Virus record (IMG/VR): IMGVR_UViG_3300035661_000004
Source: a virus
Taxonomy: Duplodnaviria; Caudoviricetes
Reading direction: 5' to 3' (one strand)
Length of the DNA stretch: 64,000 nt
The position numbers were made by a program, and so were the translations under genes. This document shows positions 2,198 to 64,000 of the stretch, one piece after another. Position 1 is the stretch's first letter. Every line of letters starts with the position of its first letter. The notes beneath the pieces are model-generated. The model had not been told where the DNA came from, searched no databases, and saw only the letters and a list, made by a program, of their open reading frames with translations.

Positions 2198-3873
2198 TGG
2201 CTGGTCAATTTGTAGACTTCTGGAGGATTGTCAAGCCCTCCGCACCGAAGACCAGCTACGTTGGTGACCCTGACGACTTCAAGCTCTACAGCAACTTCAG
2301 CTGGTATAGCAAGGTCATGAAGGGTGCGGGTAGCCGCTTCCAAAAGTACTCGCAGTACAAGAACATGGACGGCGACGTGTTCGTCTCTCGCGCGCTTGAT
2401 CAGATTGCGGCTGAGATGACGAGCGAGGACACAAAGACCAACCTCCCTTTCAAGATTACGTATCAGTCTGAGGCCAATGAGGAGGTGCCTGAGAACATCG
2501 TTGTGACCGTGCGCGCTGCCCTGCGGCACTGGTGTGACATGCAGAACCTGTATAAGCTAAGCTTTGACATCGCTCGCATGACGGTCAAGTTCGGCGACTG
2601 CTTCTTCCGCAAAACCTCTGACTTCAAACTGTGGGAGTATGTTGACCCGTCCGACGTGATCGGCATCCACTTGGACAAGGAAACGGGCAAGCCCCAGTTT
2701 TACCAAGTGCGTAAGGGCGACAGCTCTGACAAGAACTCCTTCGGTGACGCTGAGATCGTGCCTGCTGCAGGCATGGTCCACTTCTCGCTGTCTTCGGGCA
2801 TCGGCGACAATGGACCGTTCGGCGAGTCCGTCCTCTTTCCGGTCATCAAGGCGTTCCGCCACTTGAGCTTGCTGCAAGACTCGGTCATCATCTACCGAAT
2901 CGTGCGAGCCCCTGAACGTCGCGTCTTCTCGATTGACGTGGGCAACATGCCGCCCCAGCGCGCTAAGGCCTACCTCGAAGCGATCAAAAACGAGATCAAG
3001 CAGAAGCGCATGCCTAACGAGTCGGGCGGTCAAGAGAAGATCGACAGCGTCTACAACCCGATGTCCATGGTCGAAGATTACTTCTTCATGCAAACGGCCG
3101 ACGGCCGAGGCTCAAAGGTTGACACGCTCTCCGGCGGTGAGAACCTCGGCGAGATCAAGGACCTGAACTACTTCCAGAACATCTTCCTGCAAGGCCTGCG
3201 GATCCCATCGAGCTACATGCGCGGTTCGGATGACAACGGCTCGCAGGTGCAGGACGGTAAGGTCGGCGTCGCCTACATGGAGGAGCGCAACTTCTTCAAG
3301 TACGTGCAGCGGCTGCAGCGCAACCTATGCCCGTCCTACGACCGCGAGTTCAAGGCTTACCTCAAGTCAGCAGGCATCCGTGTCGACTCGAACCTGTTCA
3401 AGATTGAGCTCACCGACCCGCAAAACTTCGACGTGTACAAGCAGGCCGAAGTCGATGAGAAGTTGATGTCCAACTTCAACAATATCAAGGACGTTGAGTT
3501 CATCGCCGGGCGCGTTAAGCTGTCGCGCTACCTGGGTTGGTCAGAAGACGAGATCCAAATGAACGAAGAGATTCTCAAGAAGGAGCTTGGCCTGCCTGCC
3601 GATGACATCGACGAGCGCCTGACCATCATCCGCATGATGTACGACAAGAACTGGATCGAGCATCGCCCTGAGCCGAAGGTTGACGAGTCGTGGGACAACC
3701 ACGTAGCGGCCTCGAAGCAGCAGGTAGCCCCAGAGGAACAAGAGCCGGCTGAAGACGAAGCCGCGCCGGAGGAGGAAGCTGAAGAAGGCGGCGAAGAGGA
3801 AGCTCCGGATGACGAAGCAGAAGCAGGCGCTGACCTGCCATCCGTCGATGACATGAAGAAGACCTTAGGATGA
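2197..3873 (+). CDS. gp20: Portal vertex protein (T4 gp20-like)
   Basis: Motifs IYRIVRAPERRVFSIDVGNMP, YNPMSMVEDYFF, GSKVDTLSGGENLGEIKDLNYF; acidic C-terminal tail. ATG at 2197 overlaps the HNH stop (TAATG). Confidence 0.95.
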   Translation: MAGQFVDFWRIVKPSAPKTSYVGDPDDFKLYSNFSWYSKVMKGAGSRFQKYSQYKNMDGDVFVSRALDQIAAEMTSEDTKTNLPFKITYQSEANEEVPENIVVTVRAALRHWCDMQNLYKLSFDIARMTVKFGDCFFRKTSDFKLWEYVDPSDVIGIHLDKETGKPQFYQVRKGDSSDKNSFGDAEIVPAAGMVHFSLSSGIGDNGPFGESVLFPVIKAFRHLSLLQDSVIIYRIVRAPERRVFSIDVGNMPPQRAKAYLEAIKNEIKQKRMPNESGGQEKIDSVYNPMSMVEDYFFMQTADGRGSKVDTLSGGENLGEIKDLNYFQNIFLQGLRIPSSYMRGSDDNGSQVQDGKVGVAYMEERNFFKYVQRLQRNLCPSYDREFKAYLKSAGIRVDSNLFKIELTDPQNFDVYKQAEVDEKLMSNFNNIKDVEFIAGRVKLSRYLGWSEDEIQMNEEILKKELGLPADDIDERLTIIRMMYDKNWIEHRPEPKVDESWDNHVAASKQQVAPEEQEPAEDEAAPEEEAEEGGEEEAPDDEAEAGADLPSVDDMKKTLG

Positions 3874-4442
3874 AGCTATCTAACCTGCTCGAAGGAGCTG
3901 TCCCCCGGCAACAGCTCTTGAAGTTCCAGCAAGAGTTGGTTGATCAGCTTGATGATGACTTCAACGTGCAGGTTAGCAGCGACAAGATCCTAATTCGACA
4001 CCCTTCCCTGAAGCAGCCGATGAAGCTCGACATGAAGGACCCGGAGCATGTCAGATTTTACGCTCAGAAATGCAGCATTAACCATCCGCTGTTCATTCAC
4101 GGTGTAGTCGAGATCATCAATGAGCGAATGGCTATTCCTAAGATGAAGGCGTGGCTGCTCGCGCATGGCTTTAAGCAGCTCACAAATGATGAGAAAGCTG
4201 AGCTGTGCGCAAGGCATAACGTGACACTGTATTCAGCTGGCTCGAAGATGGAGAACTTCCATCATGAAGCACACGGCAGCGAGCCTCCGATCATCGTGAT
4301 GCTTGGTTATGACAGCTATAAGAACGTGCATATGAATTACATGCTGTTGCCATTTGATAAGATGCCTCAAAATAAGTTTCTCCAAGGCCATGACTTTGAG
4401 GGCTATGATGACATGGTCAAGAAGCTCGAGAAGATAGTATGA
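3870..4442 (+). CDS. Hypothetical protein with MKLSNLLE leader and LLKFQQELVD motif (putative head-packaged protein)
   Basis: 190-aa ORF coupled to the portal by an ATGA overlap; N-terminal motifs are shared with many ORFs in the window. Confidence 0.75.
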   Translation: MKLSNLLEGAVPRQQLLKFQQELVDQLDDDFNVQVSSDKILIRHPSLKQPMKLDMKDPEHVRFYAQKCSINHPLFIHGVVEIINERMAIPKMKAWLLAHGFKQLTNDEKAELCARHNVTLYSAGSKMENFHHEAHGSEPPIIVMLGYDSYKNVHMNYMLLPFDKMPQNKFLQGHDFEGYDDMVKKLEKIV

Positions 4443-4945
4443 AGCTGACTAACCTGCTTGAGCAAACCGTTACCTCGAAGGATATGCTCACTGTTCAACA
4501 AGCTGTTGTGGATGACTTGCATGATGACAGCTGGGAGATTAGCTTGTCAAAGGGTGCATTGACAATGAAAAAGGGCGACGTCAAAGTAACATTCAACTTT
4601 GAGAGCCGTACTATCACCTCAGCTCAGCCTAAGCTCGTCTACGAGGTTGACTTTGCTGACCATCCCGAAGCGGCCTTGCTATCAGTGGCTGCCCTACTTG
4701 ACCTGAAGCATGAGTTGGTTAAAAGCTTAAAAGGCTACAAATACAGCTTCATCATCAATGACGGCGACGGGACGATTTTGCTAATCGCTGAGAAGCGCAT
4801 CCACCCATCGACATTTGAAGTACGCTTTGAGTTTGAGTATGACGGTGAGTGGATAGCTAATCATGCTGATAAGTCAGGTGACCGAACAGCTAGTTTTACC
4901 TCACTTGAAGACACCATGGTGTGGGTCGAAGAGTGGGAAGGATGA
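4439..4945 (+). CDS. Hypothetical protein with MKLTNLLE leader and MLTVQQAVVD motif; paralog of the 3870 ORF
   Basis: 168-aa ORF with ATGA overlap; N-terminus aligns by eye with the preceding ORF. Confidence 0.75.
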   Translation: MKLTNLLEQTVTSKDMLTVQQAVVDDLHDDSWEISLSKGALTMKKGDVKVTFNFESRTITSAQPKLVYEVDFADHPEAALLSVAALLDLKHELVKSLKGYKYSFIINDGDGTILLIAEKRIHPSTFEVRFEFEYDGEWIANHADKSGDRTASFTSLEDTMVWVEEWEG

Positions 4946-5016: not shown

Positions 5017-5652
5017 ATGTCTGACAAGCTCGTTCTCATCGAAAGCATCCACCCGTCGAACGCACGGCTGATTGTCGAGGAGCATGACTCTACGAAGTCC
5101 TCCTACCTCAGCGGCATCTTCATGCAAGCTGACCTCGTCAACGGCAACGGTCGTGTGTACCCGCTGGAGGAGATCGCCGCTTCGGTGAACTCGATCAACC
5201 AGCGTATCGCTGAAGGCCAGACGGTCTACGGCGAGCTGAACCACCCCGACAACCTGACGATCGACCTCAACAACGTGTCGCACATCATCACCGAGATGAA
5301 GATGGACGGCGCAAACGCGATCGGCAAGGCACGCATCATCGAAGGTCACCCGAAGGGTCAGATCGTTAAGGCTATCTTGAACGCTGGCGGCAAGCTGGGC
5401 GTCTCCTCGCGCGGCTCGGGTAACGTGGTCGAAGGCCGCGTGTCAGGCTTCTCGCTAGTAACCGTTGACGTAGTTGCAACTCCGTCCGCACCGAATGCAT
5501 TCCCTGGCCATGTCATGGAAGCGCTGACAGAAAATAAGAAGATCATGACCCTCGCTGAAGCGATGGTCCACAGCAATGACGCCCAGAAGTACTTCGCGAA
5601 GGAGCTCGCCTTCTTCTTCGAAAAGCTCACTGGCCAACAGCTCAGGAAGTAA
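5017..5652 (+). CDS. gp21: Prohead core protease (T4 gp21-like)
   Basis: GIFMQADLVNGNGRVYP, GELNHP, LGVSSRGSGNV, TVDVVATPSAPNAF. Confidence 0.95.
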   Translation: MSDKLVLIESIHPSNARLIVEEHDSTKSSYLSGIFMQADLVNGNGRVYPLEEIAASVNSINQRIAEGQTVYGELNHPDNLTIDLNNVSHIITEMKMDGANAIGKARIIEGHPKGQIVKAILNAGGKLGVSSRGSGNVVEGRVSGFSLVTVDVVATPSAPNAFPGHVMEALTENKKIMTLAEAMVHSNDAQKYFAKELAFFFEKLTGQQLRK

Positions 5653-6674: not shown

Positions 6675-7583
6675 ATGGATGAAATCCTCAAAAAGCTGCT
6701 TGAGTCAGACTTGCTGAGCGAAGAAACCAAGGCCACGTTGGCGGAGCAGTTCAAGACTGCCACCGACACTTTCCTGGCCGAGGAACGCGCCAAGCTCGAG
6801 ACTGAAGTCAACGCACGCCTGACGGAGGAGTTTGTCAAGGCCCGTGAAGAACTCGTTGAAAGCCTGAACATTAAGCTCGACGAAACCATCAAGGGCGAAT
6901 TTGACGAACTCAAGGGCGACATCGAACAGTTCCGTGACCTCGAAGTTGAGTTTGCCGAAAAGCTCGTTGAAGAGAAGGAACAGCTTGCTGTCCGCTTCGG
7001 CGAAGAGATGGAGATGCTTGTTGACAAGCTCGACCTCTTCCTCGAGTCCCGCGTTGACGCGGAGTTCGAAGAGCTCAAGGAAGACATCGCTGAGGTCAAG
7101 AAGCTCGAACTCGGTCGCAAGATCGTTGAAGCGTTCGGCGTTGAGTACAAGAAGATCTTCAAGGAAGACACTTCGAAGACTGAACGTGAACTCACTGAAG
7201 CACAAGACAAGCTTGCAGACGCTACCAAGCGCCTGGCTGACATCGAACGCCAACGCGTCGCTGAAGCCCGCCAAAGCAAGCTGGACGAGCTGCTCACTCC
7301 GCTGACGGGTTCCACCCGCGAGCAGATGAAGCTCATCCTCAACAATGTATCCACTGAGAAGCTGGACGAAGCGTACAAGGTTTACCTCGCACGCGTTCTG
7401 AAGGAATCGACTGTGGCTACCCCGGTGACTGCAAAGCCGGAAGCTGTTGTACAACTGACCGAAAGCAAGGTTGTCACCGGTAACGAAGGCGAAACTGAAC
7501 AAGTTCAGAAAGTCGATGCAATCACAGACCCAACCGCCGCAGCTTGGCTTTCGCGTCAGCGTAAGCTTGCTGGCATGGCATAA
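6675..7583 (+). CDS. gp22: Prohead core scaffold protein (T4 gp22-like)
   Basis: Glu/Lys-rich coiled coil directly upstream of the major capsid gene; several L-x-E sites (LLES, LTEE, LKES, LTES). Confidence 0.85.
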   Translation: MDEILKKLLESDLLSEETKATLAEQFKTATDTFLAEERAKLETEVNARLTEEFVKAREELVESLNIKLDETIKGEFDELKGDIEQFRDLEVEFAEKLVEEKEQLAVRFGEEMEMLVDKLDLFLESRVDAEFEELKEDIAEVKKLELGRKIVEAFGVEYKKIFKEDTSKTERELTEAQDKLADATKRLADIERQRVAEARQSKLDELLTPLTGSTREQMKLILNNVSTEKLDEAYKVYLARVLKESTVATPVTAKPEAVVQLTESKVVTGNEGETEQVQKVDAITDPTAAAWLSRQRKLAGMA

Positions 7584-7606: not shown

Positions 7607-8962
7607 ATGCAATTTCTGAAAGAAGCAAAGGTTTGGGGCGAAGCCAAGTCCGCTCTGCTCGAAAACCTTGACCCGACCAAGACGCGTATCGTCGACCTCG
7701 CGCTGGAAAACCAGCGCAAGTACCTCCTGGAAACTGCTGGCGCTGACGTCGTTTCGACCGGCAACGTCGCTAACTTCCAGAAGATCATGATGCCTATGAT
7801 CCGCCGGATCATCCCTGGCACCATCGGTACCGAAATCGTTGGCGTTCAACCGCTGACTGGCCCAACCGGTCTGATCTTCTCCATGCGCTACGTTTACAAG
7901 AACGCAGCAACCACGGCTGAAACCACGGCTGGCGACATCGCAGTTGATGACGAAGCTTTCGGCAATACGTCTGCTTCGGCACCGTACGCTGGCAAGATGC
8001 GTCGCTTCTACTCCGGTGGCGTGACTCCTGGTGCTTCGGGCGGCCTGTACAACGCTTCTGGCGTTGCAAACGGCGGCGCGTTCACACCGGCTGGCGCGTT
8101 CTCGCTGTCTAGCTCCCCACTGTCTGGCAACGCCGGCGATGTCATCGACATGGAAGCCTTCCCAGGCCGTTCCATGGGCATCCAAGTGCTGCGTCAGGCT
8201 GTTGAAGCCAAGACCCGCAAGCTGCAAGCTAAGTGGTCGATCGAAGCTATGCAGGACCTGTCCTCGCAGCACGGTCTCGACCTCGAAGCTGAGATCACGC
8301 AGGCTCTGTCTGCCGAAATCGTGCACGAAATCGATAACGAAATCGTTACCGACCTGATCCGTCTGGCTGGTACGACTGAGCTGTTCGATATGGCTGGTTC
8401 CTTCACGGGCACCCCGCACTACATCGGTGACCGCCACGCTGTTCTCGGCGTGCTGATCAACAAGGTGGCAAACGACATCGGCGCTAAGACACGTCGCGGC
8501 ATGGCGAACTTCGCTGTGGTCAACCCGCAAATCGTGTCGGTGCTGCAGTCCGCTGCAAAGTCCGTCTTCGCACCTGCCGTTTCTGGCTCGTTCGAAGGTC
8601 CGAACAACACCAAGCTGGTTGGTACACTGAACGGCGCGATCAAGGTTTACTCCTTCCTGTTCGATGCATCGTTCGGTACTGTGGCAGCTGCTTCGGCAGT
8701 CCCAGGTGGCGCAGGCGCTTCGTCGCAGATCGTTCTGATCGGCTACAAGGGCGGCAACGGCGAAACGGACGCAGGTTACTTCTACTGCCCGTACATCCCG
8801 CTGATGACCAGCAACACCGTTGTGGATCCACAGACCTACAACAACCAAATCGCGGTCATGACCCGCTACGGCAAGGCAACGTTCACTTCGAGCGCTTCCT
8901 CCCTGGCGAACTCGGCCGACTACTACGGCAAGATCGTCGTCAACAACCTCACGTTCCTGTAA
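7607..8962 (+). CDS. gp23: Major capsid protein (T4 gp23-like)
   Basis: VGVQPLTGPTGLIFSMRY, VEAKTRKLQAKWSIEAMQDL, GYFYCPYIPL, AVMTRYG; strong codon bias. Confidence 0.97.
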   Translation: MQFLKEAKVWGEAKSALLENLDPTKTRIVDLALENQRKYLLETAGADVVSTGNVANFQKIMMPMIRRIIPGTIGTEIVGVQPLTGPTGLIFSMRYVYKNAATTAETTAGDIAVDDEAFGNTSASAPYAGKMRRFYSGGVTPGASGGLYNASGVANGGAFTPAGAFSLSSSPLSGNAGDVIDMEAFPGRSMGIQVLRQAVEAKTRKLQAKWSIEAMQDLSSQHGLDLEAEITQALSAEIVHEIDNEIVTDLIRLAGTTELFDMAGSFTGTPHYIGDRHAVLGVLINKVANDIGAKTRRGMANFAVVNPQIVSVLQSAAKSVFAPAVSGSFEGPNNTKLVGTLNGAIKVYSFLFDASFGTVAAASAVPGGAGASSQIVLIGYKGGNGETDAGYFYCPYIPLMTSNTVVDPQTYNNQIAVMTRYGKATFTSSASSLANSADYYGKIVVNNLTFL

Positions 8963-9408: not shown

Positions 9409-9792
9409 ATGGCGCACGCTAGCATCCCATTCTTCCTCAAGCTGCAAGCTGCGCTCATCGACAACATCGATGATTGCAAGACTAGGCTTAAACGGGAACA
9501 GGATGAGCCTTGCCTCATCTATCATGACCCGGCCCTCGGCCGCTTGTACTTTAGGCATATCGGAAAGTCCATCACTGTTAGCATAGGCCGAGACGGCAAC
9601 CGCGAACGTGTGACCAGGCTGCCCAGCCCGATCTCAGCAGCAATTGGGTCAGAGCTGTTTGAGGAGAACATGAGCTCGATCGGCATTGCGGTGACCCACA
9701 TTGTCTATCGTCGTGCCCGCGCTCGGGACACGTTGGATAACACCAATACCTATAGCGAACTGGTCTTCGATAAGTTCTATGCTGTCGTATAA
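9409..9792 (+). CDS. Hypothetical protein with FLKLQAALID motif (LxLQQ family)
   Basis: 127-aa ORF; N-terminal helix matches the family motif. Confidence 0.6.
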   Translation: MAHASIPFFLKLQAALIDNIDDCKTRLKREQDEPCLIYHDPALGRLYFRHIGKSITVSIGRDGNRERVTRLPSPISAAIGSELFEENMSSIGIAVTHIVYRRARARDTLDNTNTYSELVFDKFYAVV

Positions 9793-11929: not shown

Positions 11930-12337
11930 TCATTTCCAGGCTGATTTCCAGGCTGAGAGCTTCTTACCAGTCAGCATCCTGGCCATTGCCTTGCGCTGCT
12001 TCTCATGCTCCGCAAAGACAAAGGGTAGCTGTCCTACAATCAGCGGTACCAGCTTCTCAAAGCTGATGATTGGTGAGTCAAAGATGCCAAACCAACCATC
12101 GCCGGCTCCGTACACGGCCCCTGCGCCCACGTAGATTTCAGCTGAGTCGCGCTCGCTTCTCGCTATCACAAGCTTTACGGTCTCTTCGTCATGCTTGACC
12201 GTCCCTGTATTGGTGATCAGCTCGCGCTTGATCGTGTGATGCTTGCGGGCCAGCTTGATATCGAGGTCAGCGTCAAACTCGACCAACGCTTGCTGGAGCT
12301 TCAGCGCACGTTGCACTGCGTTGTCGGGCGTGCTCAT
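11930..12337 (-). CDS. Hypothetical protein with ALKLQQALVE motif (LxLQQ family)
   Basis: GGAG SD before ATG 12337 (MSTPDNAVQRALKLQQ). Confidence 0.7.
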   Translation of the reverse strand: MSTPDNAVQRALKLQQALVEFDADLDIKLARKHHTIKRELITNTGTVKHDEETVKLVIARSERDSAEIYVGAGAVYGAGDGWFGIFDSPIISFEKLVPLIVGQLPFVFAEHEKQRKAMARMLTGKKLSAWKSAWK

Positions 12338-19053: not shown

Positions 19054-20421
19054 TCAGCCCCACATGCTAAAGTTCATGTCGATCTTGAACGGCGTGATGC
19101 GGCCACCTTCAAGCACGAGGCGGATCGTCATCTTGCTAGGCCAGGCTCCGTGCTTGAGGAAGATGTCTGTGGCCTGGCCCTTGACCTTCTCCTTAGCCCA
19201 CGCAAGCTTGTAGCGGCTTTCGGCGCGCTTCTCGTCATCAGCCTCGTCCTCGTCCTTGACCCATGAAGGGAGCTCTTGGTCATGCTGACTCGAGACCTGC
19301 TTGACAAGCTCCTCGTACTCATCGTTCGCCGCCTTGATCTTTGGGTCACCGTAGCTAAGAGCAGTCTCGCACTTGTACTCGACGTAGGTGTCGCCCGTGC
19401 CGCGCTCCCTCTTCATCAGGTCGTCAAGGCTGATCCGGCTGTCTGTCAGGTTGTAGGTTTTCCCCATGAAGTTGAGCTTCTTTACGTAGCCCTCCCTGAT
19501 GACGTGCTCGAGCATGTCAGCCGTGTTATCAAAGCCTGCAGCGCGCTTGTTGCGTAGCGCATTAGCCTTGTACTTTAACTGGCCCACCAGCTTCTGGATG
19601 TAAGCGTTGTGGCTTGAGATCAGCACTGACGTGTGGGTGATCGACCTGGCAATGCCAAGCGTCTTAGGAACCGGCACCATATCCTTGCGCGCCTCAACTC
19701 GGTCAGCATGCTTCTGCTCGCGTTCTTTGTCAAACTTGATGATCAGCAGGTCGAGCTCAGGGAACTTGTCGTCCTTAGCCATCACCTTAGCCGCCGGGTT
19801 GGCCATAGCCCATTGATGTTGAGCGAAGAGCCGCAACAACTCTTCGACCTTCTTCACCTCTTGAAGCGTTCCCGCCTTTGGGCCGCTCTTGGTGATCCTC
19901 ACGAACTCAGACATGAAGGTCTTCTTCGTGCCAGGGAAGAACGGGGCGTCGGACTTGAAGCTACGGAAGAACTCAGACGTGCCTCGCCAAGCGAATGCTA
20001 GCGATTCCTTGTAGCCAGGTTTGCGAGCGCCTGTGCTGATCGCGTCCTGAAGGGTAATGATGAACACCTGCTTACCGTCGAGCATGTAAATGAGAGCGCC
20101 GACATCATCATGAGAGAACTCAGCAGCGGCGGCGTCAAACTTAAGCTTAGCCGGGTCAACGGCTGAGCCTCGGCCGATCTTGCTGTAGACAGTATTTGTC
20201 GTACGGTCAACGCCGTCCTTCCATTCTTCAGCCTTGCCCGCTGGAACGCCGGGCCGAGTCTTATACTCGCTCCTCTTGAAGCCGCGCCCGATCGTGGCTC
20301 CTGGCGACCTGGCGCGCCTGACCAAGGTAGTGGCAAGCTCCTTGTCAACCGCGTCTAAGTTGCCCAAGTGCTCGTCGAGTTGTTGTGGGGTGTCGTCTTG
20401 CAGCAATCCGAATAGCTTCAT
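19054..20421 (-). CDS. Large hypothetical late protein with MKLFGLLQD...LDE leader
   Basis: 455 aa, AGGAGAAGG SD, TAAATA at 20444-20449 (minus strand). Confidence 0.8.
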   Translation of the reverse strand: MKLFGLLQDDTPQQLDEHLGNLDAVDKELATTLVRRARSPGATIGRGFKRSEYKTRPGVPAGKAEEWKDGVDRTTNTVYSKIGRGSAVDPAKLKFDAAAAEFSHDDVGALIYMLDGKQVFIITLQDAISTGARKPGYKESLAFAWRGTSEFFRSFKSDAPFFPGTKKTFMSEFVRITKSGPKAGTLQEVKKVEELLRLFAQHQWAMANPAAKVMAKDDKFPELDLLIIKFDKEREQKHADRVEARKDMVPVPKTLGIARSITHTSVLISSHNAYIQKLVGQLKYKANALRNKRAAGFDNTADMLEHVIREGYVKKLNFMGKTYNLTDSRISLDDLMKRERGTGDTYVEYKCETALSYGDPKIKAANDEYEELVKQVSSQHDQELPSWVKDEDEADDEKRAESRYKLAWAKEKVKGQATDIFLKHGAWPSKMTIRLVLEGGRITPFKIDMNFSMWG

Positions 20422-22272: not shown

Positions 22273-22968
22273 ATGCATATCCGCCCCCTGCTTGAGCGCC
22301 CAGTCAACGTGCACGTCAACGGTCAGCTAACTGTCCTGGTCGACTTGATCAAGCGTGACTTTGGCTCCGAGCTCCGAGCAATTCCGTTCGACCAACGTTG
22401 TATGACAGCTCAAGTCGCGTACGTGTTAAGCGCCCGAACTCAAGTTCCGCTCACGGATTTGCTGAAGATCTTTGCTACCGCTTACAACAAGAAGCTTGAT
22501 CGTCAGGCGCGCTACAAGGTTGACGCTTACGGTGTTACGCCGCAACAGCTGTTCGACGCTTATGACGGGTTCAAGCTGGTAATCAAAGATAAGCCCTATA
22601 AGCTAAAGCTTAGCTTTGACCACTATACATCGGTTGAAGAGATCGTGAGCGCGGTTAAGGAAGGTCACCCTGTAATTGTCCCTTACAATTCATACGGGCG
22701 GTTTAGCAATGGTGCTAATCACCACTCTAATGAGGGGAAGTTTCATCAAAAATTCATTGATCGCCGTGGCGTTCGTGACCCGCACAGCAGCTATTATCAC
22801 GCGCTGCTTGCTGTAGGCGTTGACGAAGGCTCTAAAGAGGTAATCCTGCGAGACATTCGCTCGCTGTACCTGTTTAAAGGCTATGTCAAGGTGCCGTACA
22901 AGGCGATGCGTAACTACATCAAGATGGCGTTCACCTTTGACGCCGACTTAGAGCCGGTGCAGCCATGA
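22273..22968 (+). CDS. Papain-like (C39-like) peptidase with MHIRPLLE leader
   Basis: Putative catalytic Cys (QRCMTAQVAYVL), GHPVIV, YHALLAVGVD, VILRD. Confidence 0.6.
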   Translation: MHIRPLLERPVNVHVNGQLTVLVDLIKRDFGSELRAIPFDQRCMTAQVAYVLSARTQVPLTDLLKIFATAYNKKLDRQARYKVDAYGVTPQQLFDAYDGFKLVIKDKPYKLKLSFDHYTSVEEIVSAVKEGHPVIVPYNSYGRFSNGANHHSNEGKFHQKFIDRRGVRDPHSSYYHALLAVGVDEGSKEVILRDIRSLYLFKGYVKVPYKAMRNYIKMAFTFDADLEPVQP

Positions 22969-23324
22969 AGCTTCAACGCGTGCTAGAAGCTGTGCTGGTG
23001 CAAGTCGTGCCTAAGCCAAACTCGCCCTCCTACTTGCGTAAGCAGGCACTTGAAATGCAACAGCTGCTGGTCGATGATGACTGGGACACGAAAGTCCAGT
23101 TCACGACTACCAACACAAACATACCGTGCGTCATTATCTCGTGCACGAAAGAAGCGAGTGAGATGGACACGCCGCATGCTGATAAGGTGATCGGTTATTA
23201 CATCGCTGAGGGCTCTCATCATAATGTTAAAGGCCACGAGTATGTCAACTGGGAAGTCCACAGCCATGGCGGCTATATGACCATGTCAGACATTGTCGCT
23301 TGGCTGCATAGGACATACGCATGA
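22965..23324 (+). CDS. Hypothetical protein with MKLQRVLE leader and ALEMQQLLVD motif
   Basis: 119 aa, ATGA-coupled. Confidence 0.7.
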   Translation: MKLQRVLEAVLVQVVPKPNSPSYLRKQALEMQQLLVDDDWDTKVQFTTTNTNIPCVIISCTKEASEMDTPHADKVIGYYIAEGSHHNVKGHEYVNWEVHSHGGYMTMSDIVAWLHRTYA

Positions 23325-36429: not shown

Positions 36430-36430
36430 C

Positions 36431-36947: not shown

Positions 36948-36976
36948 TTTACACGGGATTGAGCCCGTGATACTAT
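36948..36976 (+). promoter_or_regulatory. Early promoter TTTACA-N17-TACTAT
   Basis: Recurring early consensus. Confidence 0.75.
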
Positions 36977-36984
36977 TCTGATTC

Positions 36985-40831: not shown

Positions 40832-41174
40832 AGTGCTCAATGATCATCGGCGCTTCTTGCTCGAGGTGCAGCAAGCGTACCTTGACAAGCACCCGAAGCA
40901 CGAGACAAGGCTCACCCAGCATCACGGATGCCCTACGCTCTTGGTGTGGGCAGGCGACATGCCTAGCACCCCAGGCGTGGCTACAAGCATGTTCTTCTAT
41001 GATGACCAGCTAAGCTCATTGACTCGCCGTGACGCGCCTAAGCTCAGGTTTGAGGTTAGCAGCCGTGACGGTCTTAGCAGGCTTTCTCGTGAGTTCTTCT
41101 TTGACACCACGCTCGACGACTGTCAAGCTGTGCGTCGATGCTTTGAGCAGCGCGCTGATCGAAAGCCTGGGTAA
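40818..41174 (+). CDS. Hypothetical protein with MRLSEVL leader and FLLEVQQAYLD motif
   Basis: 118 aa, overlaps the previous stop. Confidence 0.7.
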   Translation: MRLSEVLNDHRRFLLEVQQAYLDKHPKHETRLTQHHGCPTLLVWAGDMPSTPGVATSMFFYDDQLSSLTRRDAPKLRFEVSSRDGLSRLSREFFFDTTLDDCQAVRRCFEQRADRKPG

Positions 41175-41457: not shown

Positions 41458-42612
41458 ATGGCCGAACTCAAGACCTTCATCGCTGAAAACGCCCACACAG
41501 GCTTTGACATCATCGCGAAGCTGGACACGGTCCATGACCTGATCGATGTCAGGAAGTTCGAGCGCTACTACGAAGCTCCCATCAAGGCCTTCGAGGACGG
41601 CGCCAAGGCCGACGCTGTGTACAACACGGTTCATGTCGAAGCCAAGGACGCCGTCAACCGCATCTTCGACACGGCTTGGGAAAAGGTCGACTACGCCGCT
41701 CCGTGGTTTGGCTATCAACAGCCGAACCAGAAGGTGCTCAATGACGCCGACATCTACCCCGAGCACCACATCAACGGCACGAACTACAAGAAAGCAATCA
41801 GGACCCTCGACGCGATGGAAAAGGTCCTGAATGATGCCGAAAGCAAAGCCGCAATTGCGCAGCTCCGCCGGCTCGGTGATGCCTATAGCTACTGCATGGA
41901 CGCCTTCAAGGCCACCCAAAGCAAGGTCATCAAGGGGCGCCGCCCAAACTTGAATGCGGCGAATGAGTTCGCTTCGCGCATGGGTTCGGCTCACGCTGTG
42001 GCCACGGTGCGCACCAACCTGCTGAAGAGCATCACGCCGCCGCTCGATGACTTCGAGAAGCAAGTGCAGGCTTGGTTCGAGCGCGTGCTGGCTGGCCTTG
42101 ACGCTGCGTGCAAGGGCCAAACCGAGGTCAAGCCTTTCAAAAACCCCATCGACTCAATGGTCTTCAACAAGACGTACGACTTCAAGGCCAAGGGCTGGGA
42201 CGACAAGCGCGTGTACACCGAGCTGAAGCGTACTGCCAACGCAGATGCTTTTCCGAAGCACGAGGCTGCTATTCAGCGCAAGATAATCGAGGAGAAGTTC
42301 TTGCACAAGAACGCCCTCAAGCTGTCTGCCCTGTTGGACGCCAAGGGCAACCTGACCAGCATCGACGTGCTGCCCAGCTCGCCGGTCAAGCTGCACAACG
42401 GCGCCGGCACGCTGACCTCCGAGATGGTGGTCAAGTTTGCTGACGGCTCGAGCTTTACGGTGCGCAACAAGGTCATCATCAACCGCACCTCGCTGGGCAA
42501 TACCTTCTATCAGTTCCCGACCACCTTCCATGACGTGGTCAAGGCCGACGGCACCAAGCTCGATGCACCTTCCGAAGAGAAGATGCTGAAGGTCTTCGGC
42601 GGCAAGGCATGA
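41458..42612 (+). CDS. Early hypothetical phage protein
   Basis: 384 aa, AGGAG SD, strong codon bias. Confidence 0.8.
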   Translation: MAELKTFIAENAHTGFDIIAKLDTVHDLIDVRKFERYYEAPIKAFEDGAKADAVYNTVHVEAKDAVNRIFDTAWEKVDYAAPWFGYQQPNQKVLNDADIYPEHHINGTNYKKAIRTLDAMEKVLNDAESKAAIAQLRRLGDAYSYCMDAFKATQSKVIKGRRPNLNAANEFASRMGSAHAVATVRTNLLKSITPPLDDFEKQVQAWFERVLAGLDAACKGQTEVKPFKNPIDSMVFNKTYDFKAKGWDDKRVYTELKRTANADAFPKHEAAIQRKIIEEKFLHKNALKLSALLDAKGNLTSIDVLPSSPVKLHNGAGTLTSEMVVKFADGSSFTVRNKVIINRTSLGNTFYQFPTTFHDVVKADGTKLDAPSEEKMLKVFGGKA

Positions 42613-43127
42613 GCGAACGGGCCGAGGCCCTCAAGCTGCAGCAGCGGCTTGTAGAGGTTTTTGCTCTCGGCCCGCTCCAAGCTACCATAGTTCACCTGGG
42701 CATCCTGCGAGTCAAGCTCCAGGTGCCTGGCTGTCACCGTGTCCTCGCTGTGCATCGCTCGGCGCATGAGGAAGAATCGCCGTTCCAAATTGGCATGGAC
42801 GTAGGGGATGGGTTAGAATTCATCGACTACTCGGTCTCCTTTGAAGGCTTACTCTCGGACATCGTCTTCAACTTCATGACAGACGCGTATGACTATAGTT
42901 TGTTCGAGCATGTCATGCACAATGTATATGAAGGCGCTAAGCCTGTAGACTGGAGCGATGAGCGCAGCATGCGGCTGCTCGGGCATTACTTGCTTAGCAA
43001 CAAGCTAGAGCTGCTTTGCATAGGCAACATGCAGCTCCCAGGGTTGGACTTTCTTGGACGGATTGACATTGCTAATGTTCCCATGTTCCTCTATGGCGTT
43101 GATGAGCTGCCGTCATGGTTACTATAA
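42609..43127 (+). CDS. Hypothetical protein with ALKLQQRLVE motif
   Basis: 172 aa, ATGA-coupled. Confidence 0.7.
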   Translation: MSERAEALKLQQRLVEVFALGPLQATIVHLGILRVKLQVPGCHRVLAVHRSAHEEESPFQIGMDVGDGLEFIDYSVSFEGLLSDIVFNFMTDAYDYSLFEHVMHNVYEGAKPVDWSDERSMRLLGHYLLSNKLELLCIGNMQLPGLDFLGRIDIANVPMFLYGVDELPSWLL

Positions 43128-51805: not shown

Positions 51806-51990
51806 CTGACCAGCCTCAGGTCAATGACGCTGAGGCGGTGGTCGACAAGATCCTCGAGGACATTAGCGACTCGGTCTACATGGGCTCGATGATGCTGGCT
51901 CTCTCAAAGCCGCAACGTGACCGTATGCGTAGGCGCTGGATCAAGATCATTGAAGGCGCTCAAGTTGAGCGCGACTGGGCTAACTACTAG
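51802..51990 (+). CDS. Small hypothetical protein
   Basis: 62 aa, ATGA-coupled. Confidence 0.6.
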   Translation: MTDQPQVNDAEAVVDKILEDISDSVYMGSMMLALSKPQRDRMRRRWIKIIEGAQVERDWANY

Positions 51991-53429
51991 CCTAAGCAGC
52001 GTTTCAGCTCTGCTGCGATGGTTTTGGCATAGTAGCCGGCATCACCATCAAGAACCTTGTTGCCTTTCTTGTGCTCGAACTCGTAGATGATGTTTGCATC
52101 GGCTTGATCGGGCGTTTGAAAGTTGATGATGAACTTGTCTCCGTTCGGACCTGGAATCTTGATACTCCACGGCGTCGCCGTGCACTTACTCAGCTGATCA
52201 GCTGGCAGAAGTTCGCATAGCTCTTCGTATGACCTGAGCACATAGATAATTTCGCCTAAGCCATGTGACGCCAGGCGAGTCTTATTCTTGGCACCGCTCT
52301 CGTAAACTTCAACGTCAGCGCCGCTCTCATAGTTGGGGTTGGCCCTGATGACCAGCAACCACTTGAATAGGTTGTTGGGGCCAGTCACAATCAAGCCCTC
52401 CTTCGACCGCGGAATCGTGATTTTGACATCAGTGTGCTCAGCGATCTCCTGCTGCCACTTGAGCAAAGCTTGCAGCTCTGGATCTTCGGCTTCATACAGC
52501 TCGCGTTCGGCGTCAAATTTCTGCACGTATTTCGGGTTTAGGCCCTTCTTCTTCATGAAGTTGGTCATACCGATGTTAAAAGCATGCAGCGCGTCAGGCA
52601 CCGACTTGACCTTGTCGTAGTAGGTCTTGAGGATGTTGGCGCCAATCTTGACCTGGTTCTCGATGTTGCCTTTTAGCTTGCTTGGGTCGATGCCCCAAAC
52701 ACCCGGCCGGATCTGTGTCAGGCCTACAGCCGGGTCATGCTTCAAGCCTGACACCACGTTAGGCTTGAACGAACTCTCGATGCCGATAACCGAGAGGATG
52801 TCTTCCGCCTTCGGAAAGGTCGGCTTCTCATGCTTGACGGCGAGGCGAGCGACCTTCAGGGCGAAGTCATCGGTGACCTTGTACTTGTCGACAACGATCG
52901 AAGCCAGCTCCTTAGCACGAGCCTCCTTCTTGTTGTCCTCTTGAGCCATGTGCTGCTTCATGGTCAAGCGCTTGGTCTCTGAGTCGTTCTCGGCCTTCTG
53001 TGCGGCGGAGACCGGCTCATGGGCGGGAGCCTTAAGCGTGCTGCCGGTCAGCGAAGCAGCGGCCAGGACACCGGCAGCCACGGCATGCTTGAAGCCTTCT
53101 TCGAGCTTCCCATCTTGCAGGTTACCGAAGGTCGGGAGCATTCGGCTAACATGGCGGTGAAAGCCAGCATGATCAGTCCAAGCCGAGAAACCGTTGACAG
53201 ACTTACCGTTCGCGGTCATGTCGCAAATATCGACCGTAGCTGAAAACGGCTCGTAAGCAGCAATGCTAAAGAGGATAGTTTGGGTCTCGCCTCTAAACTT
53301 GACATCGACACGGATATGCTGATCATCTACAACCTTGTAATGCAACCGCGGCTCGATCTCGATGAGCTCCTGCTGCAGACGCAACACGTCTTTTCTCGCT
53401 TCTAGGAGCTCGCTAAATAGAGGCAGCAT
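51987..53429 (-). CDS. Three-module late protein: LxLQQ module, SLT lytic transglycosylase, LxLQQ module
   Basis: SLT motifs SVIGIESSF, AVGLTQI, GANILKTY, ALHAFNIG; modules begin after ELLE, KLEE and ELYE; TAAATA at 53456-53461 (minus strand). Confidence 0.85.
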   Translation of the reverse strand: MLPLFSELLEARKDVLRLQQELIEIEPRLHYKVVDDQHIRVDVKFRGETQTILFSIAAYEPFSATVDICDMTANGKSVNGFSAWTDHAGFHRHVSRMLPTFGNLQDGKLEEGFKHAVAAGVLAAASLTGSTLKAPAHEPVSAAQKAENDSETKRLTMKQHMAQEDNKKEARAKELASIVVDKYKVTDDFALKVARLAVKHEKPTFPKAEDILSVIGIESSFKPNVVSGLKHDPAVGLTQIRPGVWGIDPSKLKGNIENQVKIGANILKTYYDKVKSVPDALHAFNIGMTNFMKKKGLNPKYVQKFDAERELYEAEDPELQALLKWQQEIAEHTDVKITIPRSKEGLIVTGPNNLFKWLLVIRANPNYESGADVEVYESGAKNKTRLASHGLGEIIYVLRSYEELCELLPADQLSKCTATPWSIKIPGPNGDKFIINFQTPDQADANIIYEFEHKKGNKVLDGDAGYYAKTIAAELKRCLG

Positions 53430-62566: not shown

Positions 62567-64000
62567 TCACTCGTCTTGGTCGCTGAAGATGGCAGTTAGC
62601 TCTGACATGAGCTTATTGAGAGCTTGCTCCCAAGTATCAAACACAGCTTCGTCCTCGCCGTCGGTGAGCGCGCCGCCGTCAACAAACATCAGGATGCGTT
62701 CTTCGTTAGGCACCCGGCGGATGATGTACGAGCATTCGGTGTCATAGTCACCGCCGCTGGCTTTCAAGGTGACCCTCAACCTGTCCCTGTTGCCTGAGTA
62801 CGGCACGTGCGATGCGCCGAATGTCCAATTGTAGTGCTGGCATCTAAGGCATGCATGCAGTACGCCGCCACTCATCTTGACGTCGTCAAACTCACGGCCT
62901 CTAGGCGTCTCAAAGCCGATGAACTTCTGCTGAAGCGAAAGCATCACGCGCTTGCTGTATTCAACCTCTTCAAAGATCTTCTCAACAGGGCCGTCGGCGA
63001 TAGTCCGTTGGATCACGTTGTCGTCGAGGTGGACTGTCTTAGAGTAAGCGATGGCCTCTCTTGTTTGCTCAACGTCACGCACTCGGACTCGCTCAACGCT
63101 GAAGCGGTCAAGCGTGCTCACATAGATTGTTAGCGGATGCTTAGTCGTTGCGATGAGCCGTCGATCATCAAGAGTAAGCTCGTACTCCTGCGTGTAGTTA
63201 ACGTGGTTCCGCTTAAAGCCTGCCGCTGTGATGATCTTCAAGAACGCAGTACGTTCCGCATAAGCAACATGTAGCTTGACCCAGTGAGGTAGAGCGGCAT
63301 CATCACCCAAGAGGTTCGCGACCCAGTGAGGTAGAGCGGCATCATCACCCAAGAGGTTCGCGATGCTTACGTCGTAGAGCTTGTCGCCGAGGTGATCATA
63401 GACGACGACCTCCTTGCCGCCATCTTCAATCTTGACATTGTGCTTAGGCAGCGCGTCAACGATAGCCTGCTGGATCAAGAGAGCCCGTGACCGCAACGTG
63501 CTGGCTTCATTGAGCTTACTTGTACACGCCTGGCGTAGCTCAGCAGGTACGACCAGCTTCTTGCTTTCCAAGCCCTCAACGGCTCGCTTCAGGATCTCCT
63601 TCAGCTGTGCCTTGTGCGGGAAGCTTGATGACATCATTAGCTTGAAGGCGTCGCCGTAGGTCATGACCTGCTTCGCGCTCACGCTTGAGCCGAAGAGGAT
63701 GGTGCAGATCTTGTCAGGGTCGCTGGTGATCAGGCTCTTGCCCGTGGTCTTGAAGGACTTCGTGATCCCGCGTTTTCCTGCCTTGTCCTGTGTTGACCTA
63801 TAGAGCCCACGGCTTAGATCGAATGCAAGCCTACTCCTTGCCGTCTCTTGGCCGTCTGCCGCCCTGGCCGTCACCTTGTACTCCGCATACTTCGCGATTG
63901 CAAACAGCAGCTCATTGCGGTGAGAGCCCTTCAAGCCTAGCTTCAGGTCGTTCGGGGCGTTGTAGTAGGCCCACTTCGCTAGCTTGAGGTTCGTTGTAGG
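62567..64000 (-). CDS. 5'-truncated multi-module late protein: nucleotidyltransferase-like N-terminal module followed by an LxLQQ module
   Basis: Frame is open to the window end; AKWAYYNAP...LKGSHRNELLFAIAK pattern recalled from phage NTase-like proteins; KLNE-AST...ALLIQQAIVD starts the second module. Confidence 0.65.
   Translation of the reverse strand, partial: PTTNLKLAKWAYYNAPNDLKLGLKGSHRNELLFAIAKYAEYKVTARAADGQETARSRLAFDLSRGLYRSTQDKAGKRGITKSFKTTGKSLITSDPDKICTILFGSSVSAKQVMTYGDAFKLMMSSSFPHKAQLKEILKRAVEGLESKKLVVPAELRQACTSKLNEASTLRSRALLIQQAIVDALPKHNVKIEDGGKEVVVYDHLGDKLYDVSIANLLGDDAALPHWVANLLGDDAALPHWVKLHVAYAERTAFLKIITAAGFKRNHVNYTQEYELTLDDRRLIATTKHPLTIYVSTLDRFSVERVRVRDVEQTREAIAYSKTVHLDDNVIQRTIADGPVEKIFEEVEYSKRVMLSLQQKFIGFETPRGREFDDVKMSGGVLHACLRCQHYNWTFGASHVPYSGNRDRLRVTLKASGGDYDTECSYIIRRVPNEERILMFVDGGALTDGEDEAVFDTWEQALNKLMSELTAIFSDQDE
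63279..63362. repeat. Perfect 42-bp tandem duplication (in-frame, 14 aa)
   Basis: ACCCAGTGAGGTAGAGCGGCATCATCACCCAAGAGGTTCGCG x2, encoding ANLLGDDAALPHWV twice. Confidence 0.97.

What the first reader, a model, noticed from the sequence alone, without database searches (positions are those of the whole stretch)
3870..63484. Dispersed paralogous module family defined by an L-x-[LVW]-Q-Q-x-[LI]-[VI]-[DE] helix (about 14 copies)
Seen in sequence: LLKFQQELVD (3870), MLTVQQAVVD (4439), FLKLQAALID (9409), FLLEVQQLLL (9779), ALKLQQALVE (12337-), ALEMQQLLVD (22965), LLKLQQLVLD (33163, frameshifted), LLLDVQAQLI (36985, frameshifted), ALELQQTIID (40151), FLLEVQQAYLD (40818), ALKLQQRLVE (42609), VLRLQQELIE and LLKWQQEIAE (twice in 53429-) and ALLIQQAIVD (63.5 kb-). 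The motif always lies 5-25 residues after a start or an L-x-E site and is followed by otherwise divergent sequence of alternating beta-type pattern. I do not recognise it as a named family. Inference: a gene-duplication-driven family with a shared docking or targeting helix and hypervariable bodies, for example injected anti-defence or host-takeover proteins. Several copies are decaying, consistent with birth-and-death evolution.
Basis: partly seen in the sequence, partly recalled or inferred. Interest (0 to 1): 0.75.

Follow-up and report, generated by a model that had tools for sequence, protein, structure and literature searches.

The report
Leader-tagged QQ-domain family, jumbo phage
An uncultured giant phage with T4-type head genes has scattered about twenty copies of an undescribed small protein domain among its late genes, most of them behind a short tag resembling the one phage T4 uses to load proteins into its head, so they are probably head-packaged cargo, but nothing has been tested at the bench.

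Summary
All 14 quoted strings are in the window. A profile search finds about 20 modules in 18 ORFs on the 113-kb contig, 10-12 of them in the window. Shuffled DNA gives about 0.04 helix matches against 18 observed. T4, XacN1 and RsoM2USA have 0-1 against 12 here.

The shared unit is not only a helix. It is a domain of about 95 residues, predicted as helix, four strands, helix. It has no Pfam, PHROG or fold match. A separable leader, MKLxxLLE, usually precedes it.

The leader ends in L-x-E, the T4 gp21 cleavage motif. This phage has a gp21-type protease, an MCP with LLE|T at the gp23-like position, and a scaffold with 16 such sites.

The same leader sits on unrelated enzymes. QQ modules are also fused to a lytic transglycosylase and to a Pol-beta-like nucleotidyltransferase, each module preceded by L-x-E.

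The genes are late: they follow TAAATA motifs or overlap structural genes.

Best reading (about 0.5): head-packaged, protease-trimmed cargo like the T4 internal proteins. Packaging and cleavage are untested.

The scan reached the same reading on a neighbouring window, and found analogous leader families in at least 36 other genomes.

The parts
3870..4442 (+). QQ-domain gene, 190 aa, leader MKLSNLLE. It overlaps the portal stop codon (ATGA). It is the first of two genes between portal and prohead protease, the position of T4 genes 67/68.
   Evidence: HMM E 1e-16. Its only close homolog is 46% identical. No Pfam or PHROG family.
4439..4945 (+). QQ-domain gene, 168 aa, leader MKLTNLLE. It has an ortholog directly after the portal gene in the closest relative, L017.
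   Evidence: HMM E 1.5e-20; L017 4238-4780.
11930..12337 (-). QQ-domain gene without the leader. The start is uncertain (12361, 12337 or the GTG used by P0013).
   Evidence: HMM E 1.6e-5 rising to 3.7e-7 on iteration; E 5.9e-7 with the A2 HMM.
22965..23324 (+). QQ-domain gene, 119 aa, leader MKLQRVLE with an 11-residue insert before the helix. It overlaps the stop of the upstream late gene and sits between the head-tail adaptor and a virion structural gene.
   Evidence: HMM E 3.6e-18; neighbours identified.
33198..33380 (+). Truncated copy: QQ helix plus about 50 residues, with no leader and no ATG (only TTG at 33213). It lies between a leader-only gene and the tail tube gene. Probable relic.
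   Evidence: HMM E 3.7e-5; frame inspection.
36410..36601 (+). Short degenerate copy, 63 aa, with QT in place of QQ.
   Evidence: HMM E 0.004, falling to 3e-10 on iteration; E 0.03 with the A2 HMM.
36985..37146 (+). Short degenerate copy, 53 aa (LLLDVQAQLI).
   Evidence: hhalign probability 89%; A2 HMM E 0.006.
40151..40831 (+). QQ-domain gene, 226 aa, GTG start, leader (M)RLSSLLE. It overlaps the stop of the small-terminase-like gene.
   Evidence: HMM E 4e-19; context.
40818..41174 (+). QQ-domain gene, 118 aa, leader MRLSEVLND (Asp in place of Glu).
   Evidence: HMM E 8e-5, falling to 2e-13 on iteration.
42609..43127 (+). Possible member. Only the helix ALKLQQRLVE matches.
   Evidence: hhalign probability 74% over 17 columns; HMM E about 0.01.
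9409..9792 (+). Weak candidate (FLKLQAALID).
   Evidence: hhalign probability 39%; HMM E 0.05-0.4.
51987..53429 (-). 480-aa fusion. QQ module 1 is at 53145-53429, the SLT lytic transglycosylase domain at 52536-52799, and QQ module 2 at 52227-52511, preceded by LYE. A TAAATA motif lies at 53461.
   Evidence: Pfam SLT E 3.7e-8; HMM domains; ortholog P0016 starts MKLSNLLE; promoter-like motif.
62567..64000 (-). C-terminal 477 residues of a 596-aa protein that starts at window position 64357, outside the window. It is a Pol-beta-like nucleotidyltransferase domain followed by a QQ module at 63242-63526 (preceded by LNE) and a weak further module near 62927-62962. A perfect 42-bp tandem duplication lies at 63278-63363.
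   Evidence: Full ORF; HMM; AF2 pLDDT 92 and Foldseek match to Pol lambda at E 2e-5; stand-alone homologs lack the modules; tandem repeat.
19054..20421 (-). 455-aa protein with the leader MKLFGLLQDD but no QQ domain. A TAAATA motif lies at 20449.
   Evidence: No Pfam or PHROG family.
32444..33166 (+). 240-aa protein with the leader MKIRDLLE but no QQ domain. It overlaps the stop of the tail sheath stabilizer gene.
26114..26317 (+). 67-aa ORF with the leader MKISKFLD, no QQ domain.
5017..5652 (+). T4 gp21-type prohead protease, with LIE|S at residues 7-9 as in T4 gp21. Proposed to cut the leaders.
   Evidence: phrog_207 E 3.3e-60; LxE sites.
6675..7583 (+). gp22-like scaffolding protein with 16 [LI]xE sites. 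Its N-terminus, MDEILKKLLES, resembles the leader.
   Evidence: conserved N-terminus in relatives.
7607..8962 (+). Major capsid protein with LLE|T at residues 40-43, the expected propeptide cut.
   Evidence: phrog_138 E 8.7e-87.
2179..3873 (+). Portal protein (gp20-like).
   Evidence: phrog_213 E 3.1e-87.

Best explanation
The window comes from an uncultured jumbo phage of the XacN1/RsoM2USA/Rak2-like group, which builds its head with T4-type portal, gp21-type protease, gp22-type scaffold and gp23-type capsid proteins.

It carries a lineage-specific, expanded family of about 20 copies of a new domain of about 95 residues. I call it the 'QQ domain': an N-terminal helix R..aLKhQQxLvDxL, then four strands with a conserved aromatic residue, then a C-terminal helix.

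Most copies are preceded by a separable 8-residue leader, M-K-L-x-x-L-L-E.

Proposed mechanism (inferred, not shown):
1. The leader works like the T4 capsid-targeting sequence. Late in infection it takes the protein into the scaffolding core of the assembling prohead.
2. The gp21-type protease cuts after the Glu of L-x-E.
3. In multi-module or enzyme-fused precursors it also cuts at the L-x-E that precedes each internal module.
4. The mature QQ proteins and the fused enzymes (a lytic transglycosylase and a Pol-beta-like nucleotidyltransferase) stay in the head and leave with the DNA at the next infection.
5. The divergent bodies would then bind different host targets, anti-defence being the T4 IPI* precedent.

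Duplication, divergence, truncation and loss generate the scatter of copies.
For: Shown:
- The family is real and specific.
- It is rare: 44 hits among 1.84e9 representative proteins, two of them spurious repeat proteins. Only 2 other IMG/VR contigs carry it. It is absent from RsoM2USA and XacN1.
- The leader regex has 15 six-frame hits, and all 14 listed lie at ORF N-termini; shuffles give 0.28. Leu and Glu codons vary synonymously between copies, so the conservation is at the protein level.
- The leader is portable. It sits on a CTP_transf_like enzyme whose Pfam match starts at residue 16. Of that enzyme's 77 homologs, 45 start with the strict leader and 75 have [LIF]xE before the HxGH core, with a variable linker of 10-20 residues.
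- The protease system fits. There is a gp21-type protease with LIE at residues 7-9 as in T4, an MCP with LLE|T (T4 gp23 has LTE|A), and a scaffold with 16 [LI]xE sites, the same number as T4 gp22.
- The cargo leader resembles the scaffold N-terminus in both phages. In T4, gp22 starts MLKEQLIAEA and IPII/III start MKTYQEFIAEA. Here the scaffold starts MDEILKKLLES and the leader is MKLxxLLE. T4 Alt starts MELITELFDE.
- 11 of 12 internal modules have [LI]xE 7-32 residues upstream of QQ, against 17% of background windows.
- Expression is late. TAAATA is enriched 4.8-fold over permutations of the same composition. It precedes the protease, scaffold, sheath and tube genes, three QQ genes (at -19532, -12821 and 53461), one further possible member (80510), and three genes that carry only a leader or leader-like start (20449, 37236, 64838). 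The other family genes overlap the stop codons of structural genes.
- A lytic transglycosylase with no signal peptide lies between two modules.
- The leader of the nucleotidyltransferase fusion is modelled below pLDDT 50 while the domain reaches 92.

Precedent:
- The T4 capsid-targeting sequence is a propeptide of 10-19 residues, sufficient for packaging, cut at L/I-x-E, on hypervariable cargo (PMC9026906, PMC3012670).
- A 20-member head paralog family exists in the giant phage SPN3US (PMC5694885).
Against: - There are no virion proteome, N-terminal mapping or cleavage data for this phage or for any carrier of the family.
- The mature proteins are near-neutral or acidic (pI 4.7-7.9 for most), unlike the basic T4 IPII and IPIII.
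- There is no sequence similarity to T4 IPs, gp67 or gp68.
- The L-x-E enrichment before internal modules is partly circular, because the HMM contains the LLE columns, and orthologs are not independent.
- In distant relatives the leader-bearing CTP_transf_like gene heads the baseplate operon, and leader-like small genes follow a gp25-like gene. The leader could therefore mark something other than head targeting.
- The enzymes found in XacN1 virions (chitinase, lipase; PMC5852040) show no such leader.
- Several copies lack the leader (12337, 42609, 65550).
- The AF2 model of the domain is only moderately confident (pLDDT 64).
Confidence: 0.5

Rival explanations
1. The QQ proteins are late cytoplasmic, non-packaged proteins, for example assembly factors or regulators. 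MKLxxLLE plus the QQ helix is simply the conserved N-terminal helix of the fold, or a shared interaction helix for some non-capsid partner. L-x-E is then not a cleavage site.
For: - AF2 models residues 4-24 as one continuous helix that includes the leader.
- The leader-bearing CTP_transf_like gene heads the baseplate operon in distant phages, and leader-like small genes follow gp25-like genes.
- XacN1 virion enzymes lack the leader.
- The mature proteins are not basic.
Against: - The same leader occurs on proteins of unrelated folds, with linkers of variable length (11-residue insert in 22965).
- The leader is disordered in the confident nucleotidyltransferase model.
- The match to the gp21 cleavage motif, and to the scaffold N-terminus, would be coincidence.
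- The lytic transglycosylase fusion has no other evident route to the cell wall.
Confidence: 0.25
2. The family, at least the two genes between portal and protease, encodes prohead core or scaffold accessory proteins like T4 gp67 and gp68. They would help build the very large capsid and then be degraded and expelled. They would be assembly parts, not delivered effectors.
For: - The position is identical to T4 genes 67/68.
- They are late and translationally coupled to the portal gene.
- L-x-E sites are present.
- T4 gp67 and gp68 also lack homologs outside close relatives.
Against: - The closest relatives lack one or both genes at this site. L017 has one, and L033/L034 go from portal straight to protease. 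That is unlikely for essential core parts.
- Most copies are scattered elsewhere.
- Apart from the leader there are few internal [LI]xE sites, unlike the scaffold with 16.
- Fusion to enzymes fits cargo better.
Confidence: 0.15
3. There is no family. The motif is a generic amphipathic helix that recurs by chance in a leucine- and glutamine-rich proteome.
For: - Pairwise phmmer scores between members are weak (E 3e-4 at best).
- Two to three of the listed sites are not supported.
Against: - Profile searches converge with E down to 1e-28 and pick up non-seed members.
- Shuffled and reversed controls give about 0.
- Unrelated phages have 0-1 hits against 12 here.
- Foreign homologs share the whole domain.
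Confidence: 0.02

Closest known systems
Phage T4 internal proteins IPI, IPII, IPIII and Alt, with their capsid-targeting sequence (CTS) removed by the gp21 prohead protease
   Same: - A short N-terminal leader beginning M-K and ending in [LI]-x-E, on otherwise divergent small proteins and on an enzyme.
- A gp21-type protease, a gp22-type scaffold and gp23-type MCP cleavage sites are present.
- The leader resembles the scaffold's own N-terminus.
- Cargo genes are hypervariable between relatives, lie in plastic regions among late genes, and are dispensable-looking.
- T4 IPI* is described as sheets flanked by N- and C-terminal helices (PMC3012670), the same order of elements as the QQ model.
   Different: - No sequence similarity.
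- The leader consensus is MKLxxLLE (8 residues) rather than MKTYQEFIAE (10).
- About 20 copies of one domain, rather than three unrelated proteins.
- Multi-module and enzyme-fused forms with internal L-x-E.
- The mature proteins are not basic.
- Packaging and cleavage are unproven here.
Head paralog families of giant phages SPN3US and phiKZ (families A and B; inner-body or ejection proteins processed by gp245/gp175)
   Same: - Large lineage-specific expansions of head-internal proteins in jumbo phages: 20 members in SPN3US family B, with numbers varying between relatives.
- Paralogs share identical N-terminal propeptides that contain protease motifs (PMC5694885).
   Different: - A different phage lineage. 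There is no homology: Pfam found no PF12699.
- The cleavage motif there is A/S/G-x-E, not L-x-E.
- Those families are shown by mass spectrometry to be in the head. This one is not.
T4 prohead core proteins gp67 and gp68
   Same: Same genomic slot between the portal and prohead protease genes. Small, late, with [LI]xE near the N-terminus.
   Different: - No sequence similarity.
- The slot is empty or differently filled in close relatives.
- The same domain is dispersed over the genome and fused to enzymes.

Membership tests
T4-type CTS-tagged internal head proteins (functional class) | N-terminal propeptide of about 7-19 residues ending in the protease motif [LI]-x-E | tested here: met
   MKLxxLLE is present on most members and on unrelated proteins. 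T4 leaders were read from the T4 record.
T4-type CTS-tagged internal head proteins (functional class) | The phage encodes a gp21-family prohead protease and its usual substrates with matching sites | tested here: met
   phrog_207 E 3.3e-60. LIE at residues 7-9 of the protease, LLE|T in the MCP, and 16 sites in the scaffold.
T4-type CTS-tagged internal head proteins (functional class) | The leader is portable: the same leader on unrelated cargo | tested here: met
   It sits on a CTP_transf_like enzyme and on 157-aa, 240-aa and 455-aa proteins without the QQ domain. 45 of 77 enzyme homologs carry it.
T4-type CTS-tagged internal head proteins (functional class) | The protein is physically present in the capsid and the leader is removed | not testable with these tools
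   No isolate and no proteome. The virion proteome of the cultured relative XacN1 gives no help, because the family is absent there and its virion enzymes lack the leader.
T4-type CTS-tagged internal head proteins (functional class) | Expressed when proheads assemble (late) | tested here: met
   TAAATA late-type motif upstream, or overlap with late structural genes. This is inferred from sequence, not from RNA.
T4 IPI / IPII / IPIII, gp67, gp68 (sequence families) | Detectable sequence homology | tested here: not met
   The family HMMs score at most 2.6 bits on the T4 proteins. No PHROG family.
T4 IPI* fold (PDB 2JUB) | Shared three-dimensional fold | tested here: inconclusive
   The model has pLDDT 64 and the order helix, four strands, helix. 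2jub does not appear among Foldseek or VIA matches. The best Z is 5.5, to generic alpha/beta sandwiches.
phiKZ/SPN3US head paralog families (PF12699 and family B) | Sequence homology and the A/S/G-x-E motif | tested here: not met
   No Pfam hit. The motif here is L-x-E.
SLT lytic transglycosylase (PF01464), for the 480-aa fusion only | Pfam match above the gathering score | tested here: met
   33.4 bits against a cut-off of 21.3, residues 211-298.

The most novel reading that the evidence does not exclude
The QQ domain is more than one further cargo protein. It would be a modular cargo unit of a capsid 'polyprotein' system. Units are strung together, or fused to enzymes (lytic transglycosylase, Pol-beta-like nucleotidyltransferase), through L-x-E linkers. 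[quoted passage not shown]
Probability: 0.2. Interest if true: 0.7.

Novelty: new variant of a known kind. Interest (0 to 1): 0.5.

Why it matters
If the reading is right, this phage lineage shows how a T4-type capsid-loading tag, together with one fast-evolving small domain, can be expanded into a large repertoire of delivered proteins. Such proteins are natural candidates for new anti-defence or host-takeover factors, and the tag is a natural one for loading foreign proteins into large capsids.

The leader is also conserved on an enzyme family in many uncultured phages. It could therefore be used to predict virion cargo from sequence alone.

The general idea is not new. The T4 CTS and the head paralog families of giant phages are known, and the scan has met analogous leader families in many genomes. 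What is new is the domain family and its modular, enzyme-fused forms.

Tried and rejected
- Complex prediction of the scaffold protein with the leader plus QQ N-terminal module returned 'no answer' (score 0.00). It is not evidence either way.
- Fold searches with the QQ-domain model gave nothing above generic alpha/beta sandwiches, best Z 5.5. Libraries tried: Foldseek PDB, BFVD, VIA wide and VIA second look. The ESM Atlas search for the 190-aa member gave TM at most 0.46.
- The family HMM and DNA patterns found no members in RsoM2USA or XacN1.
- The two loose leader matches in XacN1 lie inside the topoisomerase and clamp-loader genes, so they are chance hits.
- XacN1 virion enzymes show no L-x-E leader.
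- No homology to T4 IPs, gp67, gp68 or gp22.
- The search for related loci with the alignment failed for lack of a conserved stretch.
- P0021 and P0022 from the big search are repeat or TPR proteins, not members.
- Contigs carrying the foreign members P0043 and P0010 were too short to give context.
- The idea that 32444-33166 and the 33198 fragment are one frameshifted gene was rejected. Three stop codons lie just upstream in the fragment's frame.
- Site 9779 (FLLEVQQLLL) is not supported as a member.

Full report
**What the window is**

The 64-kb window is part of a 113-kb viral contig, estimated at 31% of a complete genome. PHROG searches identify these genes:
- a T4-type portal (2179-3873, E 3e-87);
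- a gp21-type prohead protease (5017-5652, E 3e-60);
- a major capsid protein (7607-8962, E 9e-87);
- tail sheath, tail tube, sheath stabilizer and head-tail adaptor;
- large terminase, gp32-like SSB, UvsX and a helicase.

The capsid protein's best annotated relatives are Ralstonia phage RsoM2USA (56%), Xanthomonas phages XacN1 and Xoo-sp13, and Stenotrophomonas phages. All have genomes of 310-385 kb. The window therefore comes from an uncultured jumbo phage with T4-type morphogenesis genes.

Every quoted string is present. Pairwise similarity between members is weak, but the N-termini align well. A profile built from eight seeds recovered non-seed copies at E 1e-6 to 1e-4 in the first round. 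It converged on about 20 modules in 18 ORFs over the contig. A second profile that included foreign homologs gave the same list.

Controls:
- The helix regex hits 18 times in six frames, against 0 in the reversed sequence and 0.04 on average in 50 codon-block shuffles.
- A DNA pattern for L-x-x-QQ-x-L-[IV]-[DE] hits 12 times in this 113-kb record, against 1, 0 and 0 in RsoM2USA, XacN1 and T4.

Status of the listed sites:
- Solid: 3870, 4439, 12337(-), 22965, 33198, 40151, 40818, both modules of 51987-53429(-), and 63.5 kb(-).
- Probable: 36985.
- Possible: 42609, helix only.
- Weak: 9409.
- Unsupported: 9779.

**What the unit is**

Alignment with foreign homologs shows more than a helix. The parts, in order, are:
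- a leader, M-K-L-x-x-L-L-E;
- a linker of 3 to about 15 residues;
- a conserved Arg and the helix aLKhQQxLvDxL, with QQ invariant;
- a 'd-x-d-V-k-h' strand and further strands ending in a conserved Tyr or Trp;
- a C-terminal helix.

The whole is about 95 residues. AlphaFold2 with 35 sequences gives H4-24, E28-35, E38-44, E61-68, E76-81, H86-93 at a moderate pLDDT of 64.

There is no Pfam or PHROG family and no fold match beyond generic alpha/beta sandwiches.

The family is rare. It has 44 hits at E<1e-3 among 1.84 billion representative proteins, two of them spurious. Two other IMG/VR contigs carry it. It is absent from RsoM2USA and XacN1.

Homologs from other uncultured phages often carry two or three modules.

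**The leader is a separate, portable element**

The regex M[KR][LI]xx[LIVFM][LFMI][EDQN] has 15 six-frame hits on the contig, and all 14 listed lie at the N-terminus of an ORF. Shuffles give 0.28. Between copies the Leu and Glu codons differ synonymously, so the conservation is at the protein level.

Several bearers have no QQ domain:
- a cytidylyltransferase-like enzyme whose Pfam match starts only at residue 16;
- a 157-aa protein;
- 19054-20421(-), 455 aa;
- 32444-33166, 240 aa;
- 26114-26317, 67 aa.

Among the 77 database homologs of the cytidylyltransferase-like enzyme, which reach down to 33% identity, 45 begin with the strict leader. In addition, 75 have [LIF]xE before the HxGH core, at a variable distance of 10-20 residues.

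The 596-aa nucleotidyltransferase fusion and its 54 stand-alone homologs begin M-x-F-K-x-F-L-x-E. This is close to T4 IPI (MKTFKEF...) and IPII/III (MKTYQEFIAE). In a model with pLDDT 92, residues 1-15 fall below 50.

**Fit to the T4 capsid-targeting system**

In T4, propeptides of 10-19 residues target the internal proteins to the scaffolding core. The first 10 residues of IPIII suffice for packaging. gp21 cuts after Glu of [LI]-x-E, and the cargo is hypervariable between relatives (PMC9026906, PMC3012670).

Read from the T4 record:
- IPII and IPIII start MKTYQEFIAE|A;
- Alt starts MELITELFDE;
- gp22 starts MLKEQLIAEA;
- gp21 has LIE at residues 7-9;
- gp23 has LTE|A at residues 63-66.

In this phage:
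- the protease has LIE|S at residues 7-9;
- the capsid protein has LLE|T at residues 40-43;
- the gp22-like scaffold (6675-7583) has 16 [LI]xE sites, the same number as T4 gp22, and starts MDEILKKLLES.

So in both phages the cargo leader resembles the scaffold's own N-terminus and ends in the protease motif.

Internal modules are also preceded by L-x-E (LKE|S, LLE|A, LTE|S, LYE|A, LNE|A). This holds for 11 of 12, against 17% of background windows. The HMM includes those columns and orthologs are not independent, so the figure is only suggestive.

**Timing and context**

TAAATA occurs 46 times, against a mean of 9.6 for the other permutations of the same composition. It sits just upstream of the protease, scaffold, sheath, adaptor and tube genes, often only 5-10 nt before the ATG. 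The same motif precedes three QQ genes (contig positions -19532 and -12821, and 53461), one further possible member (80510), and three genes with only a leader or a leader-like start (20449, 37236 and 64838).

The other in-window family genes overlap the stop codon of a structural or packaging gene:
- portal to 3870, then 3870 to 4439;
- 22273 to 22965;
- small-terminase-like gene to 40151.

The genes are therefore late, as prohead cargo must be. This rests on sequence only.

**Fusions**

- 51987-53429(-) is module, SLT lytic transglycosylase, module. It has no signal peptide. Its ortholog starts MKLSNLLE. A wall-degrading enzyme that travels in the virion is a familiar arrangement, but an endolysin role cannot be excluded.
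- The 596-aa protein (window 62567 to 64357) is a Pol-beta/Pol-lambda-like nucleotidyltransferase fold with QQ modules appended. Its stand-alone homologs lack them.

**Birth and death**

I examined 80 loci around related portal genes, 881 kb in total.
- Only the closest relative (L017, portal 87% identical) has a QQ gene after the portal. It has one, the 4439 type.
- Relatives at 79% identity (L033, L034) go from portal directly to protease, yet contigs from the same samples carry QQ genes elsewhere.
- In the window, 33198-33380 lacks a leader and a start codon. The stretch 36410-37146 holds two or three truncated, degenerate copies.

This supports turnover by duplication, decay and loss.

**What speaks against the cargo reading**

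- Nothing shows packaging or cleavage.
- The mature proteins are not basic.
- Some copies lack the leader.
- In distant phages the leader-bearing enzyme heads the baseplate operon. Small genes with MKLx[DE]LxE starts follow a gp25-like gene there. The leader may therefore mark a wider class of late proteins.
- The XacN1 virion proteome (PMC5852040) gives no support, because XacN1 lacks both the family and the leader.

**Verdict**

I put the head-cargo reading at about 0.5. The rivals are a non-packaged late protein family at about 0.25 and a gp67/68-like core role at about 0.15.

An earlier follow-up of this scan on a neighbouring window reached the same reading. Analogous leader families were noted in at least 36 other genomes.

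The finding is a new domain family and a new variant of a known kind of system, not a new kind.

Noticed in passing
whole contig; for example window 4985, 6618, 14051, 20461, 33385, 37236, 53461(-): TAAATA occurs 46 times, against about 9.6 for other permutations of the same composition. It lies upstream of structural genes. In many cases the ATG follows within 5-10 nt (for example TAAATAGCCGATG at 37236), which suggests leaderless or very short-leader late mRNAs.
   Followed up: partly
window 63278-63363 (-): Perfect 42-bp tandem duplication (2.0 copies, 100% identity) inside the nucleotidyltransferase-QQ fusion gene. It repeats a 14-residue segment (ANLLGDDAALPHWV), so it is a recent in-frame duplication.
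   Followed up: partly
window 62567-64000 (-) and L016:570-1409: A protein family of about 275 residues with a Pol-beta/Pol-lambda-like nucleotidyltransferase fold (AF2 pLDDT 92; Foldseek E 2e-5). It has no Pfam or PHROG name. It has 54 stand-alone homologs, and all begin with a T4-CTS-like MxFKxFLxE.
   Followed up: partly
L003:14167-14859 (contig, upstream of the window); L098 10001-10711; L100 5533-6147: A cytidylyltransferase-like (GGRFQPFHxGH) enzyme carries the MKLxxLLE leader in 45 of 77 homologs. In distant phages it is the first gene of the baseplate operon, divergent from gp46/47-like genes.
   Followed up: partly
L098 16972-20293: In a distant relative, five consecutive small genes after the gp25-like gene start with (M/L/V)[KR]Lx[DE]LxE-type leaders (LKLIDLTE, MKLIELIE, MKLDELKD, VRLNEILN, MKLTDLTE). 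This is another leader-tagged array, without the QQ domain.
   Followed up: no
window 4894, 10527, 10593: Three single-base differences between the window and the genome copy laid in the Python box: T/C, C/A and C/T.
   Followed up: no
window 26-1561 (+): 511-aa protein with an endolysin/chitinase-like domain (phrog_181, E 5e-49) just upstream of the portal region. XacN1 packs a chitinase-like enzyme in its virions (PMC5852040).
   Followed up: no
window 53459-54166 (-), 28996-31008 (+), 1676-2197 (+): Homing-endonuclease-like genes (phrog_314 for 53459-54166; HNH phrog_1314 for 28996-31008) lie interspersed among core genes. 1676-2197 was not searched against any family.
   Followed up: no
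window 37246-38499 (+): 417-aa protein with a tail-tube-like domain (phrog_4542, residues 92-259). Its N-terminus, MSSLLEQ, is leader-like and sits directly behind a TAAATA motif.
   Followed up: no
L011 2135-3010 (RsoM2USA_405): The only strict leader match in RsoM2USA is a 291-aa hypothetical protein with MKLEDLFE at residues 5-12 of the annotated ORF. It lies a few genes downstream of the head genes.
   Followed up: no
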